This document shows, one piece after another, positions 20,064 to 27,280 of a DNA stretch of 64,000 nt. The stretch lies in IMG/VR virus record IMGVR_UViG_3300032282_004772; one strand, given 5' to 3'. The position numbers and the translations under genes are program-made. The notes under the pieces were generated by a model that was not told the DNA's origin, did not search any database, and was given only the letters and a program-made list of their open reading frames with translations. The stretch's first letter is position 1. Each line of letters begins with the position of its first letter. Origin of the DNA: a virus.

Positions 20064-20396
20064 TTATTCATCATCGTCTTCGTCATCTTCTTTGGATTCG
20101 TGGAACTCAAGTTCATACGTCTCATCAAGAACTTTGTCCTTACCATAATCGGCATCCATAAGTTGGTCCCACAGATTATCGTAATACTCAGTATCTACCG
20201 AAGCCATAGTCTGAGCATTCTCTTTAACATAATTCTCAATCTCTTCTTTAGACATTCCTTTTAGTTCAGGATGTGTATCTTCATTTACTGTAATCGGACC
20301 CCTCCAACAAACGTAGTAATGACCATCGGCCATATAAACATCAAGAGATACTTTTTCGTCTTTAACTGCACTCATTTTTTTGACTTTTTTTGACAT
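20064..20396 (-). CDS. Hypothetical acidic protein
   Basis: 110-aa ORF. Confidence 0.65.
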   Translation of the reverse strand: MSKKVKKMSAVKDEKVSLDVYMADGHYYVCWRGPITVNEDTHPELKGMSKEEIENYVKENAQTMASVDTEYYDNLWDQLMDADYGKDKVLDETYELEFHESKEDDEDDDE

Positions 20397-20421
20397 GACT
20401 TTTAAGGTTTAAGGTTTTTAG

Positions 20422-20494
20422 TAGCGGGAGAAGGAATCGAACCTCCGACCTCCAGGTTATGAGCCTGGCGAGCTACCTCTGCTACCATCCCGCG
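20422..20494 (-). tRNA. tRNA-Met(CAT), initiator-like
   Basis: Starts CGCGGG with an unpaired C1:U72; anticodon arm CCAGG-CTCATAA-CCTGG. Confidence 0.85.
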
Positions 20495-20674
20495 ATTTTG
20501 TTACACAAAGATAATATGTTTTATCTTAACTATCAAATAAAAAAAATATTTTTTTTCTATTAGATTAAATATACTTTAGGATGAATTTATCTTATTTTTT
20601 AGTATAAAAACAATCTAAAGTAGACTTCATTTGACTATTTTAAGATATTTATAGAATAGAAAAACCGTAAAATT

Positions 20675-20779
20675 ATGAAAACAACAGATAATATGATAGG
20701 TCTTTTGGTACAGGATATTCTATTGGCATCATTACGTGTTCATAAACTGACCTTACGAAGTTTAGATAAACAAAATTAA
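20675..20779 (+). CDS. 34-aa leader / small peptide ORF
   Basis: MKTTDNMIGLLVQDILLASLRVHKLTLRSLDKQN, lying between TATTTATA (20646-20653) and a terminator. Confidence 0.5.
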   Translation: MKTTDNMIGLLVQDILLASLRVHKLTLRSLDKQN

Positions 20780-20793
20780 ATCAACTAATTTAT

Positions 20794-20823
20794 AAAAGGT
20801 CACAAGAAATTGTGACCTTTTTT
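20794..20823 (+). terminator. Intrinsic terminator with an alternative antiterminator pairing
   Basis: AAAAGGTCACAA-GAAA-TTGTGACCTTTTTT; its 5' arm AAGGTCA can instead pair with TGACCTT at 20748-20754. Confidence 0.75.
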
Positions 20824-20857
20824 GATTTTATATAATAAAAATTATATATTTAACCCC

Positions 20858-21352
20858 ATGAACAAAGTATTAGTTTTAAATTATGATTATACCCCACTCA
20901 ATGTGACCTCTTTTACAAAAGGTTTTAAATTGGTTTATAAGGGTAAAGCAGAGGTTCTGAAAGAGTCTGACACTCCCATATATACTGAGTATCAAAAATT
21001 TGTAAGACCTCTTATAATTCGTTTATTAAAGTATGTGAAGTTTCGTATTAAAAGTATTAAAGTTAATCGTTATAGAATTTACAGAAGAGATGGAGGAAAA
21101 TGTGTTTATTGTGGGTCTCAAAAACAATTAACCATTGACCACGTAATTCCTAAATCAAGGGGAGGTAAAAATAGTTGGACAAATCTTGTTACTTGTTGTC
21201 ATAAGTGTAATCTTAATAAAGCAGATAGGACACCATCCGAAGCTAATATGTCATTTATAATTAATCCGTATGAACCTGATATTTTTTCAGATATTCTAAA
21301 TAATTCCATTGAGACTATATGGAAAGAATATAAATTATCGATAGGGATTTGA
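20858..21352 (+). CDS. HNH endonuclease (McrA-like family)
   Basis: VLVLNYDYTPL; RDGGKCVYCG..LTIDHVIPKSRGG..W.NLVTCC..CN..K. Confidence 0.88.
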   Translation: MNKVLVLNYDYTPLNVTSFTKGFKLVYKGKAEVLKESDTPIYTEYQKFVRPLIIRLLKYVKFRIKSIKVNRYRIYRRDGGKCVYCGSQKQLTIDHVIPKSRGGKNSWTNLVTCCHKCNLNKADRTPSEANMSFIINPYEPDIFSDILNNSIETIWKEYKLSIGI

Positions 21353-21437
21353 TTATATATAAAAAATTATATATATTTGTATTGTTGTTCTTTGAAAGAA
21401 ATGCTCGGGTGATGAAATTGGTATACATGAGAGACTT

Positions 21438-22123
21438 TATTCTGTTTCGTTTGTATTTATAAGTATGAATACAAAATATACGAAAGAATCTCTTGAACCT
21501 ATAGTTAAAAGATGTGGCTCAATTAGACAAGTTTTAAAAGAACTTGGACTAAAAGAATCAGGTGGTAACTACAAAAATATCAAAACAAGAATTAAATTGT
21601 TAGATATTGACACATCTCACTTCCACGGCATGTTATGGAATAAAGGTAAAACTTGGTCAAAAACTAAAGACCTTTCGTCCAAATTAGTTGAGTATTCAAC
21701 ATATAGTACAGGATTACCTGTATCAACTTATGTGTTGAAAAATCAACTATTAAAACTTGGTTATAAGGTGCACATTTGTGAAATGTGTAATAATACCAAA
21801 TGGATGGAAAAAAAGATACCTTTAGAACTTCATCATGTAAATGGAAATAGATTCGACAATAGGATTGAAAATATTCAATTATTATGTCCTAATTGTCACG
21901 CTTTGACTGATAACTATAGGGGAAAGAATATGAGTGCTAGATAAGAAATTATCTAAGTAGAATTCCGTAAATTCGGTGAACCCTTTAGACTGGGAACGCC
22001 GAGCCAAGCCTTACAATAAGGAAGGTGTAGAGACTAGACACGGAACATCTAAGTCGAAAGATATGATGAAGGCATAGTCCAGACTACAAACTCAAATGAG
22101 GTGGTGAAAACCATAGTAGTAAG
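21438..22123 (+). mobile_element. Group I intron, 686 nt, inserted after U34, carrying an HNH ORF
   Basis: Core AAATTCGGTGAACCC, AACGCCGAGCC, GTAGAGACTA and CATAGTCC; terminal G at 22123. Confidence 0.88.
21465..21944 (+). CDS. Intron-encoded HNH homing endonuclease
   Basis: CEMC...LELHHVNGNRFDNRIENIQLLCPNCH; own TATTTATA at 21454-21461. Confidence 0.88.
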   Translation: MNTKYTKESLEPIVKRCGSIRQVLKELGLKESGGNYKNIKTRIKLLDIDTSHFHGMLWNKGKTWSKTKDLSSKLVEYSTYSTGLPVSTYVLKNQLLKLGYKVHICEMCNNTKWMEKKIPLELHHVNGNRFDNRIENIQLLCPNCHALTDNYRGKNMSAR

Positions 22124-22183
22124 AAAATCTCTTGGTCATTGCGACCGTGCGGGTTCGACCCCCGCCCCGAGTACCAAAAAAAT

Positions 22184-22262
22184 ACCACAGTGGTGAAATG
22201 GTAGACACGTCAGTTTTAGGAACTGATGCTTTGGCGTAAAGGTTCGAGTCCTTTCTGTGGTA
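22184..22262 (+). tRNA. tRNA-Leu(TAG)
   Basis: ACCACAG/CTGTGGT acceptor, TCAGT-TTTAGGA-ACTGA anticodon arm, short variable arm. Confidence 0.85.
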
Positions 22263-22342
22263 CAAAAAGAAAAAGAGGTCAAAAGACCTCTTTCCACGGG
22301 AAAATTACCCTCCTTTTTTTATTATTTATAATAAACAAGCAT

Positions 22343-23036: not shown

Positions 23037-24296
23037 TTATCCAGTTTGGTCTGTAGTGTTATCAGTTGAGAAATTAATGTAATACTTTTTAGTCTTACTT
23101 CCCGGTGAACCTAAATCATCTAAAATCTCTTGATATTTTTTGTAAAAAGGTCTCTTTGGGAATTTTTGGTCATTTTTTAATTTTCCGTCTTTAGATTTTC
23201 TTGAACAGAATACAATTGCTTGTTTAAGAGATTTTATCTTATTAGCGTTAAATCTACCTTGTGCGTTTCTATATGCGTCAATATCATTCATGAATTTTTC
23301 ACATTTAGCATAATCAATGTCTTGTCCTTGTAAGAAAGACGCCAATATATTGTCATACGCAGTCATTTCCGCCTCACTTGTCCCTTCTGCCGCCAATCTA
23401 TATAAAGTAATCTTTTCTGTAAATGTAGGTGGATATGAAACAGTTTCCACATCATAAGTACTCTTATCAACAGGGTCTAAAAACGAATTCCATTCAAGGT
23501 CACCAACAGTTCGAGCTTTTTCATTTTTAACCTCGGTTGCATTAGTATTTAAAGCGTCATATTGACTTTTTATTATTGCGTAATCATCATCATAATCTTT
23601 TCCTTTTTTACTATAGTATGAACCTAAATAATATAAAAAGTATTTTAAATTTGAGAAGAAACTACCTCTATATTTGTCTTTAACTTTTGTTATTAAAATA
23701 TTAACCGCATTAGACGCTTCTGTCCCATTTATGTGGTCATAATTAACAAATATATTACCAATACCATATGGCTTAAGATAATTTATTGCAGTTTGAAGTT
23801 CTGTTGCCAATTGACCTGATTGTTGATTCTGATTTTGGTTTTGATTCTGATTTTGGTTTTGATTCTGATTTTGGTTTTGATTTTGGTTTTGATTCTGTGT
23901 TTTAGGAGCAACTAATACTGTTTTTGAAACATCGTTCCCTTGACATTTCCAAGTTCCTGATTCTCCGTTTGATATTGAATATTGCCCATTAGCATTGAAA
24001 TTATATGTTAGACCATTAGATACAAATGTTGCAGTGTCTCCAACTATTTGTACCCCCCCAAAACTTGAAAGACAAGGTGTAAACGCGGCATTAACTCCGC
24101 TTTGATTTCCACCACCTTGATTTCCGCCACCTTGATTTCCACCACCTTGATTTCCGCCACCTTGATTTCCACCACCTTGATTTCCACCACCTTGATTTCC
24201 ACCACCTTGAGCCGGAGGTAATCCGCCACCTTGAGCCGGAGGTAATCCACCTGCGGGAGGTAAATCTTCTTTCAGTATTCTTATATTTTTTTTCAT
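23037..24296 (-). CDS. Hypothetical protein with (GGGNQ)7 and (QN)12 low-complexity tracts
   Basis: Likely start MKKNIRILKE at 24296. Confidence 0.7.
   Translation of the reverse strand: MKKNIRILKEDLPPAGGLPPAQGGGLPPAQGGGNQGGGNQGGGNQGGGNQGGGNQGGGNQGGGNQSGVNAAFTPCLSSFGGVQIVGDTATFVSNGLTYNFNANGQYSISNGESGTWKCQGNDVSKTVLVAPKTQNQNQNQNQNQNQNQNQNQNQNQNQQSGQLATELQTAINYLKPYGIGNIFVNYDHINGTEASNAVNILITKVKDKYRGSFFSNLKYFLYYLGSYYSKKGKDYDDDYAIIKSQYDALNTNATEVKNEKARTVGDLEWNSFLDPVDKSTYDVETVSYPPTFTEKITLYRLAAEGTSEAEMTAYDNILASFLQGQDIDYAKCEKFMNDIDAYRNAQGRFNANKIKSLKQAIVFCSRKSKDGKLKNDQKFPKRPFYKKYQEILDDLGSPGSKTKKYYINFSTDNTTDQTG
23820..23897. repeat. 6-bp-period coding microsatellite encoding about 12 QN units
   Basis: ttttga/ttttgg/ttctga units. 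Confidence 0.85.
24102..24206. repeat. 15-bp tandem repeat x7 encoding GGGNQ
   Basis: TTGATTTCC(A/G)CCACC units. Confidence 0.9.
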
Positions 24297-24315
24297 ATTA
24301 ATTTTTTTATCAAAA

Positions 24316-25710
24316 TTATTCTCTCCAAAATCCATCAGATTCTTTTTTAATTGTTCCTGTCGAGGAACCATTATCGTAATCGTATTTTACTGTTTTATTT
24401 GCCGAATCATAATCTGTAAATTTCAGCTTATCAAGTTGACTCTGACTGAATTTTAAATCTCTTCCATTTGAATCTTTTTGTCTTAAATTTCTTCTAATAT
24501 CATCCGTAACATCTTGTGGGACAGGATTAACTACACCTCCAGGGGACTGAGTTGTGGTAGTAGTTGTTGCACCTCCAGACGACTGAGTTGTGGTAGTAGT
24601 TGTTGAAGGCTCATCATTTACTTCACCTCTAAATTTTTCAACGGATTGTTTTATAGTCTTTATTGATGCACCGACTCTAAATCCTAAAAATTGGAAAATT
24701 GCATATACCGTAGGGAATACCGTATCTAAAGTAGTTGCCCACATAAGAAATTGTACAGTACTTGATATTAATAAATCTATACCAATCCACCAAAGCGCTT
24801 TACCGGCAAATCCTAAATTTTCAAACATAAAATCTTTAATATTTGATATTCTATCAGTAATCTTTGTAATTTGAGCATCTGTTGCACCTTCTTTTTTTAA
24901 CGATGTACGAACCGCTTGTGCTAAAGCTGTTTTCATTTCTGCCGGAGTTGTTAGATTTGCCTTTTCCATCAATCTAACAATTTTTCTTGCCTTGCTACCT
25001 TTAACACCATTTAACTCTAATTGAGCTAAAATTTCTTTTTTATTAAAAACAAATTTTCCGTTATTTTTTGATTCGTTTTCTCTGACTGCGTTTTGTATTA
25101 TATTACCTATCTCATTTGCTTCTTCAGTGGAATTAACCGAAAGTTCGTCACCAATTTTTTCACCTATCTCACTAGATGTTGGTTTACCAATCTGTTCCAA
25201 ATCTCTTTCAACTCCTTTTTCAACAGTAAGACCGTATTCTCTCATAGCCAACGCTTCTTCTCTACTTATAAGGTCAGGAACAATTCCTCTATCCTCTAAG
25301 GCAGTAATAACTTCTTCTGTTGATTTATTTGAATTACTAATAAATCCTTTTATTTTATCATAAAGACCCGGTTTTGATTCTAATTTACTTTGTAAAAACA
25401 TGAATCCTTCTTCCGCGGTCGCTTTCATTTCACTAGGGAAAAGTTTATTGAAAATTTGGGTAATAAATTCGGATTCTTTAGTTGTTAACGATTCGGCTCC
25501 TTTTGATGCTATTTCGCTCATTTTTTCCGCCAATTCATCTGCGTTTCTTACACCAGTGGCTCTCAATTTCTCTAAAACATCATCTAAAGATGTTCCTGTT
25601 TTTTCTAAAAATTCAGTAACTTGTTCAGAGATTAATGGTTTAAATTGGATACCCATTATCTCAGATAATCTAGATAACTCTTCATTAATTATTTTATGAT
25701 TTTTTTTCAT
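24316..25710 (-). CDS. Hypothetical protein with a hydrophobic hairpin (putative virion protein)
   Basis: 464 aa; INEELSRLSEIMG leader, TM-like segments and a Thr-rich linker. Confidence 0.65.
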   Translation of the reverse strand: MKKNHKIINEELSRLSEIMGIQFKPLISEQVTEFLEKTGTSLDDVLEKLRATGVRNADELAEKMSEIASKGAESLTTKESEFITQIFNKLFPSEMKATAEEGFMFLQSKLESKPGLYDKIKGFISNSNKSTEEVITALEDRGIVPDLISREEALAMREYGLTVEKGVERDLEQIGKPTSSEIGEKIGDELSVNSTEEANEIGNIIQNAVRENESKNNGKFVFNKKEILAQLELNGVKGSKARKIVRLMEKANLTTPAEMKTALAQAVRTSLKKEGATDAQITKITDRISNIKDFMFENLGFAGKALWWIGIDLLISSTVQFLMWATTLDTVFPTVYAIFQFLGFRVGASIKTIKQSVEKFRGEVNDEPSTTTTTTQSSGGATTTTTTQSPGGVVNPVPQDVTDDIRRNLRQKDSNGRDLKFSQSQLDKLKFTDYDSANKTVKYDYDNGSSTGTIKKESDGFWRE

Positions 25711-25777: not shown

Positions 25778-27280
25778 TTAATCCCAATTTTGTTTTTCCC
25801 AACCATCCAATTGTTCTTGAGATACAGTTTTACTTGTATCTACTTTATATATTTTTTCTCTCGCCTTAGATAAATCCTCTATTTTACTCGATTCTTTTAG
25901 TTTTTGAGTATAATCATTAATTATTTCTTCTTGTTTCTTTTTATCTCCGTTAGTATTTTCTAGTTCTTTAATTATATGTTCTATAACTTCAGGATGTTTT
26001 TCAACCTCAATGACTCCAAATTTCTTTGCAATACTCTCGACTAAATTAATTAGTGCAATATCATGTGCAAACACACCTAACGTTTTTGTCAACCATGTTT
26101 TACTTAATAATCCTCCTGTCTTAATTACCGTTCCTTGGGCCGAATTCAAAGATTTTTGCATTACAGTAGATGGTTTTAGTCCTCTTGATTCTAATTTTTG
26201 TGATGCATCTTCAAAAACCTTGACCATCTCTTCTTTAAATTTTTCAGGTTTTATTGATAATATTCTTTTAAATAATTGTTTTTCTTGTTGGGATAATCCG
26301 CCTTCTTTAATCCCCTTTGTCATTAATTGTTCTATTTCTTTCTCACTTTTACCAATTAATTTTTGTCCTAAAGCTGCCACTTCTTTTTCAGTCGCATTTA
26401 TGCCTAATTTAAAATAACTGGCGTGACAAAGAGGTAACACAAATGCAAATAGAAAATCAACTAACGCCCCTTTTTCATCCCCCTCATTAAGTTCTATCAT
26501 GGCCTTTGTTGACCAAACTCCTGCCTCCCCTAAGTAGATTGCTAATGCCCTTGTTGTTACATTGTAATTTAATACAGTAAAAGCTTCCGCCGCCACAAGT
26601 TCAGTCCCAATTAACAAATCGGCAAGTCCTCCGGTTAAAATTCCGGCAATAATTGCACCTCCAATCCATAATAAAAGTTTAAATGCTTCTTCATGGTCTC
26701 TAACAAAATTACCAACCGAACCTCTATCCTCAACATACGCATTTCCTTCGTTATCATAATACCAAGAAAATGACCAAGTATTTGGTTTAGGCATAAGACT
26801 ATAAAAATCTTCCCAAGATTTTATAGACTCCAAATATGAATTTTGATAATTCGCTCTATAAACTTTTCCATCAGATGTTTTAATTTTAACTACTGAATCG
26901 GGTTGAATTAAAAAATGTAAGTCTTTTGGAACCCAAGCGTCAGTTCTATCATTACCTTGCCCACCTTTACTCTTATCTACCCATAACATAAATCCTGGGT
27001 ATGATTTAATATTATATGTTGATGGACTTTCATTTGCAAAAGTAACTTTATCATCATATTTAACCAAAACATTTCCTCCTGATGGTGTCTTTAGTTTAAC
27101 ACTTTGCATAGGATAAGTTTGGGATGCTTGTGCGTCAGTTACAGTAACATCATATTTATTATCAGATTGGGGATTTTGTTCTAATAAATTTTCAGAACGA
27201 GTTTTATCCAAACTATATTCCATTAAAAGTTTGATTCTTTTTAACGACTCTAATCCTTTGTCTATATTATTTTGTTTCAT
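25778..27280 (-). CDS. Hypothetical protein with hydrophobic Gly/Ala helices (putative virion protein)
   Basis: 500 aa; LLLWIGGAIIAGILTGGLADLLIG. Confidence 0.65.
   Translation of the reverse strand: MKQNNIDKGLESLKRIKLLMEYSLDKTRSENLLEQNPQSDNKYDVTVTDAQASQTYPMQSVKLKTPSGGNVLVKYDDKVTFANESPSTYNIKSYPGFMLWVDKSKGGQGNDRTDAWVPKDLHFLIQPDSVVKIKTSDGKVYRANYQNSYLESIKSWEDFYSLMPKPNTWSFSWYYDNEGNAYVEDRGSVGNFVRDHEEAFKLLLWIGGAIIAGILTGGLADLLIGTELVAAEAFTVLNYNVTTRALAIYLGEAGVWSTKAMIELNEGDEKGALVDFLFAFVLPLCHASYFKLGINATEKEVAALGQKLIGKSEKEIEQLMTKGIKEGGLSQQEKQLFKRILSIKPEKFKEEMVKVFEDASQKLESRGLKPSTVMQKSLNSAQGTVIKTGGLLSKTWLTKTLGVFAHDIALINLVESIAKKFGVIEVEKHPEVIEHIIKELENTNGDKKKQEEIINDYTQKLKESSKIEDLSKAREKIYKVDTSKTVSQEQLDGWEKQNWD

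What the first reader, a model, noticed from the sequence alone, without database searches (positions are those of the whole stretch)
20646..20823. Leader peptide with terminator/antiterminator switch upstream of an HNH nuclease, targeted by that sRNA
Seen: TATTTATA, then a 34-codon ORF (20675-20779), then a strong terminator (20794-20823). TGACCTT (20748-20754) inside the ORF can pair with the terminator 5' arm AAGGTCA (20796-20802), and TTAG/CTAA extends that helix. Established: this is the geometry of ribosome-mediated attenuators. Inference: a ribosome running to the stop codon would favour termination. The 34.0-kb sRNA binding codons 9-22 would block the ribosome and allow read-through into the HNH gene, giving an sRNA-gated attenuator. 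Alternative: the peptide is a small toxin and the sRNA a trans-encoded type I-like antitoxin. Caveat: a near-consensus host-type promoter (TTTG-N20-TATATTTA) lies just after the terminator.
Basis: partly seen in the sequence, partly recalled or inferred. Interest (0 to 1): 0.8.

Follow-up and report, generated by a model that had tools for sequence, protein, structure and literature searches.

The report
sRNA-targeted leader attenuator before phage tRNA-Leu
A large uncultured phage places a tiny translated "test" gene and a switchable transcription stop in front of a nuclease gene and its two leucine tRNA genes. A small RNA made 13 kb away pairs with that test gene, a pairing that related phages have kept, so this is probably a new way of tuning phage tRNA supply.

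Summary
Homologous units occur in seven related IMG/VR phage contigs. In these the 33-40-codon ORF stays open and its indels are all multiples of three. The stop-hairpin and the ORF segment that can pair with its 5' arm change together: one three-way compensatory change, and a different-sequence 16-bp alternative helix in a distant relative. In five lineages, the phage's own small RNA is the best partner for its leader. There are two compensatory substitutions and one G.U change.

The unit with a clear antiterminator occurs only where tRNA-Leu genes follow the HNH gene (6 of 6). About 40 HNH loci without the unit have no tRNA-Leu downstream. So the likely payload is tRNA-Leu(UAA) and tRNA-Leu(UAG), not the nuclease alone.

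A host-type promoter between the terminator and the HNH gene is conserved, so the switch is an added layer of control, not the only one. The direction of the sRNA effect and the sensing of leucine are inferred.

The scan has seen this before: the same unit in another genome, and leader attenuators before phage tRNA blocks in at least eight other genomes. I found no paper describing either.

The parts
20646..20653 (+). Phage promoter-type 8-nt motif that heads the leader transcript
   Evidence: 39 copies in the window, 30 intergenic, 19 lying 11-31 nt before a same-strand ATG. The same motif precedes the sRNA at 34090 (-) and the leader in relatives.
20675..20779 (+). Leader ORF, 34 codons plus stop
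   Evidence: It stays open at 33-40 codons in G009, G011, G010, G012 and G013. Indels inside the ORF are 3 or 6 nt; those outside are 13 and 1 nt.
20702..20707 (+). Tandem Leu codons CTT-TTG (codons 10-11), one for each downstream tRNA-Leu, inside the sRNA site
   Evidence: The two codons each make up about 1.2% of phage codons. The Leu-Leu pair at this site is kept in 7 of 8 units, with synonymous variants in G010 and G012.
20699..20731 (+). Pairing site for the 34.0-kb small RNA: 20 perfect pairs (20699-20718), then 3 + 6 pairs
   Evidence: Compensatory changes in G009 and G012 and a G.U change in G011.
20748..20754 (+). Segment 2, the antiterminator strand inside codons 25-27
   Evidence: It changes together with both terminator arms in G012.
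20794..20827 (+). Intrinsic terminator: segment 3 at 20794-20805, loop, segment 4 at 20810-20821, then the T tract
   Evidence: (12 pairs), (-15.1 kcal/mol, pair probabilities 0.82-1.0).
20821..20852 (+). Host-type (Bacteroidota-like) promoter between the terminator and the HNH gene, with its upstream element in the terminator's T tract
   Evidence: A 31-nt look-alike lies at 21348-21378. An equivalent site is conserved in all relatives.
20858..21352 (+). HNH-1 nuclease gene (HNH_5), a conserved member of the cassette
   Evidence: It is 70-74% identical in G009-G012 and has 151 relatives in IMG/VR.
21403..21437 (+). 5' exon of tRNA-Leu(UAA); approximate end
   Evidence: alignment to the intact tRNA of G011.
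21465..21944 (+). HNH-2 gene inside the intervening sequence that splits tRNA-Leu(UAA) in this phage only
   Evidence: Relatives have an uninterrupted tRNA.
22124..22174 (+). 3' exon of tRNA-Leu(UAA); approximate start
22184..22263 (+). tRNA-Leu(UAG)
34000..34090 (-). Trans-encoded small RNA: promoter motif, hairpin 1, conserved A/U stretch, variable seed, terminator
   Evidence: (z -3.4; family alignment; 66.4 bits, the only strong match in the window).

Best explanation
This is a leader-peptide transcription attenuator with a second, RNA input.

Layout. A phage-type promoter (20646) starts a short transcript that encodes a 34-codon leader. Near its 3' end the leader carries a segment (20748-20754) that can pair with the 5' arm of the terminator at 20794-20821.

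Proposed switch (inferred):
- If a ribosome follows the polymerase closely, it covers that segment while the terminator is being made, and transcription stops at about 20827.
- If the ribosome lags, the antiterminator forms first. Transcription then runs on into HNH-1, tRNA-Leu(UAA) and tRNA-Leu(UAG), and into clpP in relatives. The best-placed stall site is the conserved tandem CTT-TTG leucine codons 10-11.

Second input. The small RNA made from 34.0 kb pairs with codons 9-19, directly over those leucine codons. I infer that it slows or excludes the ribosome, or triggers cleavage of the duplex, and so shifts the switch, most simply towards read-through.

The cassette also has its own host-type promoter after the terminator. 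The attenuator therefore adds conditional, probably late, expression on top of a basal level.

Shown by sequence and comparison: the ORF, the two alternative helices, the sRNA pairing, and the link to tRNA-Leu. Inferred: translation coupling, leucine sensing, and the sign of the sRNA effect.
For: 1. Conserved unit. Homologues lie upstream of HNH-1 in G009, G011, G010, G012, G013, G014 and G015.

2. Coding signature. The frame stays open in every lineage. Indels inside the ORF are 3 or 6 nt, those outside are 13 and 1 nt. A lost ATG in G012 is replaced by an in-frame ATG six codons upstream.

3. Antiterminator.
- The predicted fold of the nascent transcript pairs a 3' ORF segment with the terminator's 5' arm in all 8 units.
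- In the five close units the helix is 97.5% paired, against 27-48% when the partner is slid.
- In G012 one position changed in segment 2, segment 3 and segment 4 together. The segment-2 change is a synonymous Val codon change.
- G013 has a 16-bp alternative helix of different sequence.
- Arm-duplex shuffle p is 0.014 or lower in the five close units.
- The seven lineage p-values combine to about 0.003 (my arithmetic, Fisher).

4. Payload. tRNA-Leu genes follow HNH-1 in all 6 phages that have a clear antiterminator unit, and in none of about 40 distinct HNH-1 loci without the unit.

5. sRNA.
- Perfect 20-nt pairing in the window.
- Both partners changed together at position 10 in G009 and at position 7 in G012, and G011 has a G.U change.
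- The cognate sRNA is the best partner of its leader in 5 of 5 lineages.

6. Leucine. 8 of 34 codons in the window are Leu, against 8.3% background (p 0.006); pooled, 36 of 237.
Against: - A host-type promoter sits between the terminator and HNH-1 in every lineage, so the payload does not depend on read-through.
- At equilibrium the terminator wins by about 10 kcal/mol and the antiterminator has zero pair probability. The window's antiterminator (7 bp) is the weakest in the family.
- Only five or six independent lineages are available. The three-way change is a single event, and the shuffle control cannot reach significance with 5 sequences (119 and 93 of 500).
- G014 and G015 have leader-like units with no significant antiterminator and no downstream tRNA-Leu.
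- Leu enrichment is not significant in 5 of 7 lineages.
- There is no segment 1:2 anti-antiterminator as in trp.
- Segment 2 lies 21 nt upstream of the stop, so a ribosome parked at the stop does not cover it.
- In G013 the sRNA pairs with segment 2 instead, which would favour termination, so the sign may differ between lineages.
- There are no expression data for any of these uncultured phages.
Confidence: 0.55

Rival explanations
1. An ordinary micro-gene. The 34-residue peptide has a job of its own, its transcript simply ends at its own terminator, and the distant sRNA represses it by antisense pairing, for example through RNase III cleavage of the 20-bp duplex. No read-through control exists.
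For: The ORF is conserved with a coding-type indel pattern, and two peptide blocks are kept. The promoter motif lies at the usual distance from the ATG. The terminator is strong. HNH-1 has its own conserved promoter.
Against: - It does not explain why a segment of the ORF stays complementary to the terminator's 5' arm, including the joint change in G012 and the different-sequence 16-bp helix in G013.
- It does not explain why the unit is found only with downstream tRNA-Leu genes.
- The middle of the peptide is poorly conserved.
- No homologue was found among 1.84 billion representative proteins.
Confidence: 0.2
2. The terminated leader transcript is itself the product: a decoy or sponge that titrates the sRNA, or a dual-function RNA. 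The sRNA's real targets lie elsewhere.
For: Both RNAs carry the same promoter motif and are short terminated units. Attenuator-derived RNAs acting in trans are known, for example rnTrpL (PMC6614838, listed). The pairing is extensive.
Against: - In the 64-kb window the leader is the only strong match to the seed; the next best is 17 nt inside a terminator.
- In five other relatives that carry the sRNA family but lack the leader on the fragment I hold, no alternative target stood out.
- The idea does not explain the antiterminator.
Confidence: 0.12
3. A trans-encoded type I-like toxin-antitoxin pair, with a small toxic peptide kept silent by the sRNA.
For: A small ORF with an antisense RNA partner.
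Against: The peptide has no hydrophobic transmembrane stretch, and its conserved C-terminal block is polar and charged. The partners are 13-25 kb apart. There was no match in Pfam or PHROGs.
Confidence: 0.03
4. The 20-nt identity is a leftover of duplication: a decayed copy of the sRNA gene on the minus strand at 20.7 kb, with no function. On this view the attenuator geometry is chance.
For: Weak collinear similarity exists on both sides of the 20-mer.
Against: - The flanks are not significantly similar (p 0.33 and 0.21).
- The sRNA covariance model scores the minus strand at 20675-20734 at only 17.7 bits, E 2.2.
- The pairing is kept through compensatory changes across lineages whose HNH-1 proteins are only 53-74% identical.
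Confidence: 0.03

Closest known systems
Leader-peptide (ribosome-mediated) transcription attenuators of amino-acid operons: E. coli leuL, trpL, hisL, pheL, and the pheM leader of pheST
   Same: A short translated ORF with codons for the sensed amino acid, an intrinsic terminator before the payload, and an antiterminator that shares one strand with the terminator. The payload is functionally tied to that amino acid.
   Different: - The payload is tRNA genes plus a nuclease, not biosynthetic or synthetase genes.
- There are only two adjacent regulatory codons.
- No 1:2 anti-antiterminator is present.
- Segment 2 lies inside the ORF, 21 nt before the stop.
- A second promoter follows the terminator.
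- The setting is a phage of a Bacteroidota-type host.
- There is an extra trans-RNA input.
Antisense-RNA (countertranscript) driven transcription attenuation of plasmid replication genes: pT181 RNAI/II and pIP501 RNAIII (from my own knowledge)
   Same: A small RNA pairs with a nascent leader and decides between terminator and antiterminator folds.
   Different: - Those RNAs are cis-encoded and fully overlap their target; here the RNA gene is 13-25 kb away.
- Here the pairing is 12-21 contiguous bp.
- The leader is translated.
- In most lineages the site lies upstream of the antiterminator strand rather than on it.
c4 antisense RNA of phages P1 and P7 acting on ant mRNA
   Same: A phage-encoded small antisense RNA that acts in trans on a phage transcript, with downstream transcription affected.
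   Different: c4 is processed from the same operon as its target, blocks a ribosome binding site and acts through Rho. Here there is a separate gene, the site is inside the coding region, and the terminator is intrinsic.
rnTrpL of Sinorhizobium meliloti (PMC6614838, PMC7968998)
   Same: It links a leader-peptide attenuator with trans RNA regulation.
   Different: There the attenuator RNA is itself the trans-acting sRNA. Here the attenuator is the target of another sRNA.

Membership tests
Leader-peptide transcription attenuator | Short ORF upstream of the payload that is translated | tested here: inconclusive
   The ORF is conserved and its indels preserve the frame. The promoter-to-ATG spacing is typical. 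There are no ribosome data.
Leader-peptide transcription attenuator | Intrinsic terminator between the leader and the payload | tested here: met
   12-bp stem plus T tract, -15.1 kcal/mol; present in all 8 units.
Leader-peptide transcription attenuator | Antiterminator that is mutually exclusive with the terminator, supported by covariation | tested here: met
   The nascent fold shows it in 8 of 8 units. There is a three-way compensatory change in G012 and a different-sequence 16-bp helix in G013. Support is limited to a few lineages.
Leader-peptide transcription attenuator | Run of regulatory codons for the sensed amino acid | tested here: inconclusive
   The tandem Leu pair at codons 10-11 (CTT-TTG in the window) is conserved in 7 of 8 units. 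Leu enrichment is significant in 2 of 7 lineages, and 36 of 237 codons pooled against 8.3% background. This is shorter than classical runs.
Leader-peptide transcription attenuator | Anti-antiterminator (segment 1:2) or pause hairpin | tested here: not met
   Predicted upstream hairpins end just before segment 2 but do not include it.
Leader-peptide transcription attenuator | Payload functionally matched to the sensed amino acid | tested here: met
   tRNA-Leu(UAA) and tRNA-Leu(UAG) follow in all 6 phages with a clear unit, and in none of about 40 HNH-1 loci without it.
Antisense-RNA driven attenuation (pT181 / pIP501 type) | Antisense RNA complementary to the leader | tested here: met
   20 perfect pairs; the pairing co-varies in relatives.
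Antisense-RNA driven attenuation (pT181 / pIP501 type) | Cis-encoded on the opposite strand of the target | tested here: not met
   The sRNA gene lies 13.3 kb away in the window and 14-25 kb away in relatives.
Antisense-RNA driven attenuation (pT181 / pIP501 type) | Binding sequesters the antiterminator strand so that the terminator forms | tested here: not met
   In the window, G009, G011, G012 and G015 the site is upstream of segment 2. Only in G013 does it overlap segment 2.
Type I toxin-antitoxin | Small hydrophobic membrane-active toxin peptide | tested here: not met
   No transmembrane stretch; the conserved C-terminus is polar; no family match.
Type I toxin-antitoxin | Antitoxin RNA gene adjacent to or overlapping the toxin gene | tested here: not met
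   The genes are 13 kb or more apart.

The most novel reading that the evidence does not exclude
A two-input switch on phage tRNA supply. A leader-peptide attenuator senses how fast ribosomes read one CTN and one TTR leucine codon, and so gates the two phage tRNA-Leu genes that read them. A trans-encoded phage sRNA pairs exactly over those sensor codons to override or reset the switch. This would be the first leader-peptide attenuator known to control tRNA genes, and the first shown to take a trans-encoded sRNA as a second input.
Probability: 0.35. Interest if true: 0.85.

Novelty: new variant of a known kind. Interest (0 to 1): 0.72.

Why it matters
Large phages carry many tRNA genes, but how those genes are regulated is almost unknown. 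A switch that reads ribosome speed on the very codons served by the downstream tRNAs would let a phage top up a tRNA only when it runs short. That could happen through codon-usage mismatch with the host or through host anticodon nucleases.

A trans sRNA input on a translated attenuator would be a regulatory design not described for phages or bacteria in the papers I could search. It would also give one clear, testable target for a family of phage small RNAs that is widespread in uncultured freshwater phages.

Tried and rejected
- Peptide homology. There was no hit among 1.84 billion representatives and none in Pfam or PHROGs. tblastn in eight related contigs gave only noise.

- Cultured phages and exact matches. 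INPHARED phages have no relative of the leader or the sRNA. The exact 20-mer is absent from IMG/VR.

- Neighbour genes as anchors.
  - The 110-aa gene at 20064-20396 led to relatives that lack the unit at that site. This is a plastic region.
  - The 500-aa gene at 25778-27280 has only four distant relatives.

- Targets of sRNA family members in G001-G006 and G008. I found no convincing complementary site. These contigs are 14-76% complete.

- Energy scan of the whole window with the sRNA. The leader tile ranks first among non-self tiles, but only narrowly (-55.3 against -54.5), because long A/U-rich duplexes inflate the background. The exact-match and comparative tests are the informative ones.

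- Decayed sRNA paralogue on the minus strand at 20.7 kb. Rejected.

- A stabilisation statistic for the antiterminator was noisy: individual p-values ranged from 0.015 to 0.83.

- A scan with the leader-peptide alignment and a second DNA pattern added no new lineages.

- Limits reached.
Later work used coordinates only.
I have five lineages.

Full report
**What is in the window**

The window comes from a large, A/T-rich uncultured phage. It carries a tmRNA gene, at least eight tRNA genes (one more is cut by the window's end) and several HNH genes. Earlier notes describe it as a T4-like freshwater phage of about 320 kb with a Bacteroidota-type host.

The stretch from 20646 to 22265 is a plus-strand island between minus-strand blocks. 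It holds, in order:
- an 8-nt promoter-type motif (20646-20653);
- a 34-codon ORF (20675-20779);
- a canonical intrinsic terminator (20794-20821: 12 pairs, 4-nt loop, T tract);
- a host-type promoter-like site (20821-20852);
- HNH-1 (20858-21352, HNH_5);
- a second copy of the promoter-like site (21348-21378);
- tRNA-Leu(UAA), split by an intervening sequence that carries HNH-2, with exons at about 21403-21437 and 22124-22174;
- tRNA-Leu(UAG) (22184-22263).

**Checking the observation**

The promoter motif is not a chance word. Of its 39 copies, 30 are intergenic, although only about 11% of the window is non-coding. Nineteen lie 11-31 nt before a same-strand ATG. The leader ATG is 29 nt after its copy, and another copy heads the small RNA at 34090 on the minus strand.

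The claimed antiterminator pairs 20748-20754 with 20796-20802.
- It appears in the predicted fold of the nascent transcript up to the terminator loop (-7.7 kcal/mol locally).
- Once the 3' arm is made it loses to the terminator (-15.1 kcal/mol). The full-length fold is -29.0 against -18.9 kcal/mol when the antiterminator is forced.
- In classical attenuators the terminator is also the more stable fold, so this does not argue against a kinetic switch.
- By shuffling, the complementarity has p about 0.03, and it is the strongest among 10 terminators in the window.
- On its own this is suggestive, not convincing.

The link to the 34.0-kb RNA is an exact 20-nt identity on the plus strand, 20699-20718 = 34026-34045. 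The minus-strand RNA there has the promoter motif, a G/C-rich hairpin and a strong terminator (z -3.4). It is therefore perfectly complementary to codons 9-15, and 3 + 6 further pairs reach 20731.

**Finding relatives**

The peptide has no detectable homologue. Cultured phages and an exact-word scan of IMG/VR gave nothing. Relatives found through the neighbouring 110-aa gene lack the unit at that site.

An earlier scan note on another genome described a look-alike unit with an 8-nt version of the same complementarity. I turned that lead into a structural DNA pattern and found three IMG/VR contigs, G009, G010 and G011. An alignment of HNH-1 proteins then found 151 relatives. The unit is present upstream of the gene in G012, G013, G014 and G015 as well. 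HNH-1 identity to the window is 70-74% in G009-G012 and 53-58% in G013-G015, so these are distinct lineages.

**The ORF behaves as coding**

- In all lineages an ATG-started frame of 30-40 codons ends shortly before the terminator.
- In the alignment of the five close units, the gaps inside the ORF are 3 or 6 nt in two separate places. The gaps between the stop and the terminator are 13 and 1 nt.
- In G012 the ATG has become ATA, but an in-frame ATG six codons upstream keeps the frame open.
- The peptide keeps an N-proximal Gly/Ser-Leu-Leu-Val/Ile-Gln-Asp block and a C-terminal Thr-Leu-Arg-x-Leu-Asp-Lys-Gln block. The middle is variable.
- Both conserved blocks coincide with RNA elements, the sRNA site and segment 2, so peptide and RNA constraints cannot be separated.

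**The terminator/antiterminator has comparative support**

- The predicted nascent fold pairs a 3' ORF segment with the terminator's 5' arm in all eight units.
- In the five close units segment 2 ends exactly 24 nt before the end of the stop codon, whereas the distance from stop to terminator varies from 14 to 29 nt.
- The 2:3 helix is 97.5% paired, against 27-48% when the partner is slid by 1-3 columns.
- In G012 one position has changed in segment 2, in segment 3 and in segment 4, which keeps both alternative helices. The segment-2 change is a synonymous Val codon change.
- G013 has a terminator of different sequence and a 16-bp alternative helix to the ORF's 3' end.
- Arm-duplex shuffle tests give p of 0.014 or lower for the five close units. 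G013 is 0.13 in that narrow test. G014 and G015 are not significant.
- A noisier stabilisation statistic gives lineage p-values that combine to about 0.003 (my arithmetic).
- Caveat: the lineages are few, and the three-way change is one event. The column-shuffle control cannot be significant with five sequences.

**What the switch controls**

In G011 the order is leader, HNH-1, intact tRNA-Leu(UAA), tRNA-Leu(UAG), clpP, followed by the convergent homologue of the window's 229-aa gene.

tRNA-Leu genes follow directly in all six phages that have a clear antiterminator unit (window, G009, G010, G011, G012, G013). They follow in none of about 40 distinct loci that lack the unit, nor in G014 or G015. 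G013 is more distant in HNH-1 than several relatives that lack both features, so this is not simply one clade.

The leader's conserved tandem codons CTT-TTG are rare in this phage, about 1.2% each. Between them they represent one codon for each downstream tRNA. Leucine is enriched in the window's leader (8 of 34, p 0.006) and in the pooled leaders (36 of 237 against 8.3%), but not significantly in most single lineages.

I therefore read the tRNA-Leu pair as the likely payload, with HNH-1 as a conserved passenger. Homing nucleases inside phage tRNA regions are known, for example T4 SegB (my own knowledge).

**The sRNA input**

The sRNA belongs to a family found upstream of a conserved 194-aa gene in many IMG/VR phages. 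It has the promoter motif, hairpin 1, a conserved A/U stretch, a variable seed and a terminator.

In the lineages that carry the leader:
- G009 has 21 perfect pairs. Position 10 of the site has changed in both partners relative to the window.
- G011 differs by one change that keeps a G.U pair.
- G012 has position 7 changed in both partners, giving 12 + 4 pairs around a 2-nt mismatch.
- G015 has 10 + 10 pairs. G013 has about 14 pairs, but on segment 2.
- In a matrix of six sRNA seeds against eight leaders, the cognate sRNA is the best partner of its leader in 5 of 5 lineages.
- The leader is the only strong match to the seed in the window.
- The idea that the site is a decayed sRNA copy fails.

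This agrees with the earlier follow-up on the sRNA (e1-5742818), although I could confirm five lineages rather than dozens.

**Mechanism and its status**

Shown: two alternative helices, a frame kept open, sRNA pairing over the tandem Leu codons, and the link to tRNA-Leu.

Inferred:
- A ribosome that keeps pace with the polymerase covers segment 2 as segment 3 emerges, which gives termination.
- A ribosome delayed at codons 10-11 leaves segment 2 free, which gives read-through. The delay could come from scarce Leu-tRNA or from the sRNA duplex.
- A ribosome parked at the stop does not cover segment 2, which lies 21 nt upstream, but it would sit inside the antiterminator loop.
- The sRNA site starts 25 nt after the A of the ATG, outside the initiation footprint. 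A roadblock or duplex cleavage is therefore more likely than a block of initiation.
- The sign of the sRNA effect is open, and the G013 arrangement would favour termination.

**Comparison and novelty**

The design works like a leuL/trpL-type attenuator combined with countertranscript-driven attenuation as in pT181 and pIP501. It fails defining features of each: there is no 1:2 element, and the RNA is not cis-encoded. Three full-text searches found no report of attenuation control of phage tRNA genes, or of a trans sRNA acting on a leader-peptide attenuator.

Within this scan the same unit was noted in another genome. Leader attenuators before phage tRNA blocks were reported in at least eight other genomes. 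Those are unchecked notes, which I used as leads only.

**Verdict**

This is a new variant of known attenuation mechanisms. Confidence in the two-input attenuator reading is about 0.55.

Noticed in passing
window 33999-34090 (-); L023, L030, L035, L047, L074, L076 and L100 upstream of the 194-aa gene homologue: A family of small RNAs sits just upstream of a conserved 194-aa gene in many IMG/VR phages. Each has the promoter motif, hairpin 1, a conserved A/U stretch, a variable seed and a terminator. In relatives that lack the leader unit on the contig I found no target.
   Followed up: partly
window 21403-22174 (+): tRNA-Leu(UAA) is split in this phage by an intervening sequence of about 690 nt that carries the HNH-2 gene (21465-21944). 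G009, G010, G011 and G013 have the tRNA uninterrupted. Rfam reported no group I intron at gathering score.
   Followed up: partly
L206-L224: More distant HNH-1 homologues sit directly after long tRNA arrays, typically right after tRNA-Gln. This HNH family appears to be a habitual resident of phage tRNA regions.
   Followed up: no
L139 4556-5230; L138 12925-13596: Relatives carry a clpP-like gene right after tRNA-Leu(UAG), on the same strand. The window lacks it and goes straight to a bidirectional terminator at 22270-22295.
   Followed up: no
L235 (G013 175008-175086, minus strand) and L153: In the complete 268.7-kb genome G013, the sRNA family member is complementary over about 14 pairs, two of them G.U, to the antiterminator strand of the leader rather than to its Leu-codon region. 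The sRNA's own terminator arm resembles the leader's.
   Followed up: partly
window 20821-20851 and 21348-21378: A 31-nt promoter-like element (84% identical) is repeated before HNH-1 and before tRNA-Leu(UAA).
   Followed up: no
window 23037-24371 (-) versus L001 13626-14399: The 444-aa protein with Gly-Gly-Asn-Gln and Asn-Gln repeat runs is called at 257 aa in a near-identical ENA assembly and at 437 aa in another. This suggests repeat-length variation or an assembly collapse.
   Followed up: no
L017 and L018-L021 versus window 20400-22300: The closest relatives found through the 110-aa gene have different genes (DUF932 and others) where the window has the leader, HNH and tRNA-Leu island. This junction is a hot spot for gene exchange.
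   Followed up: partly
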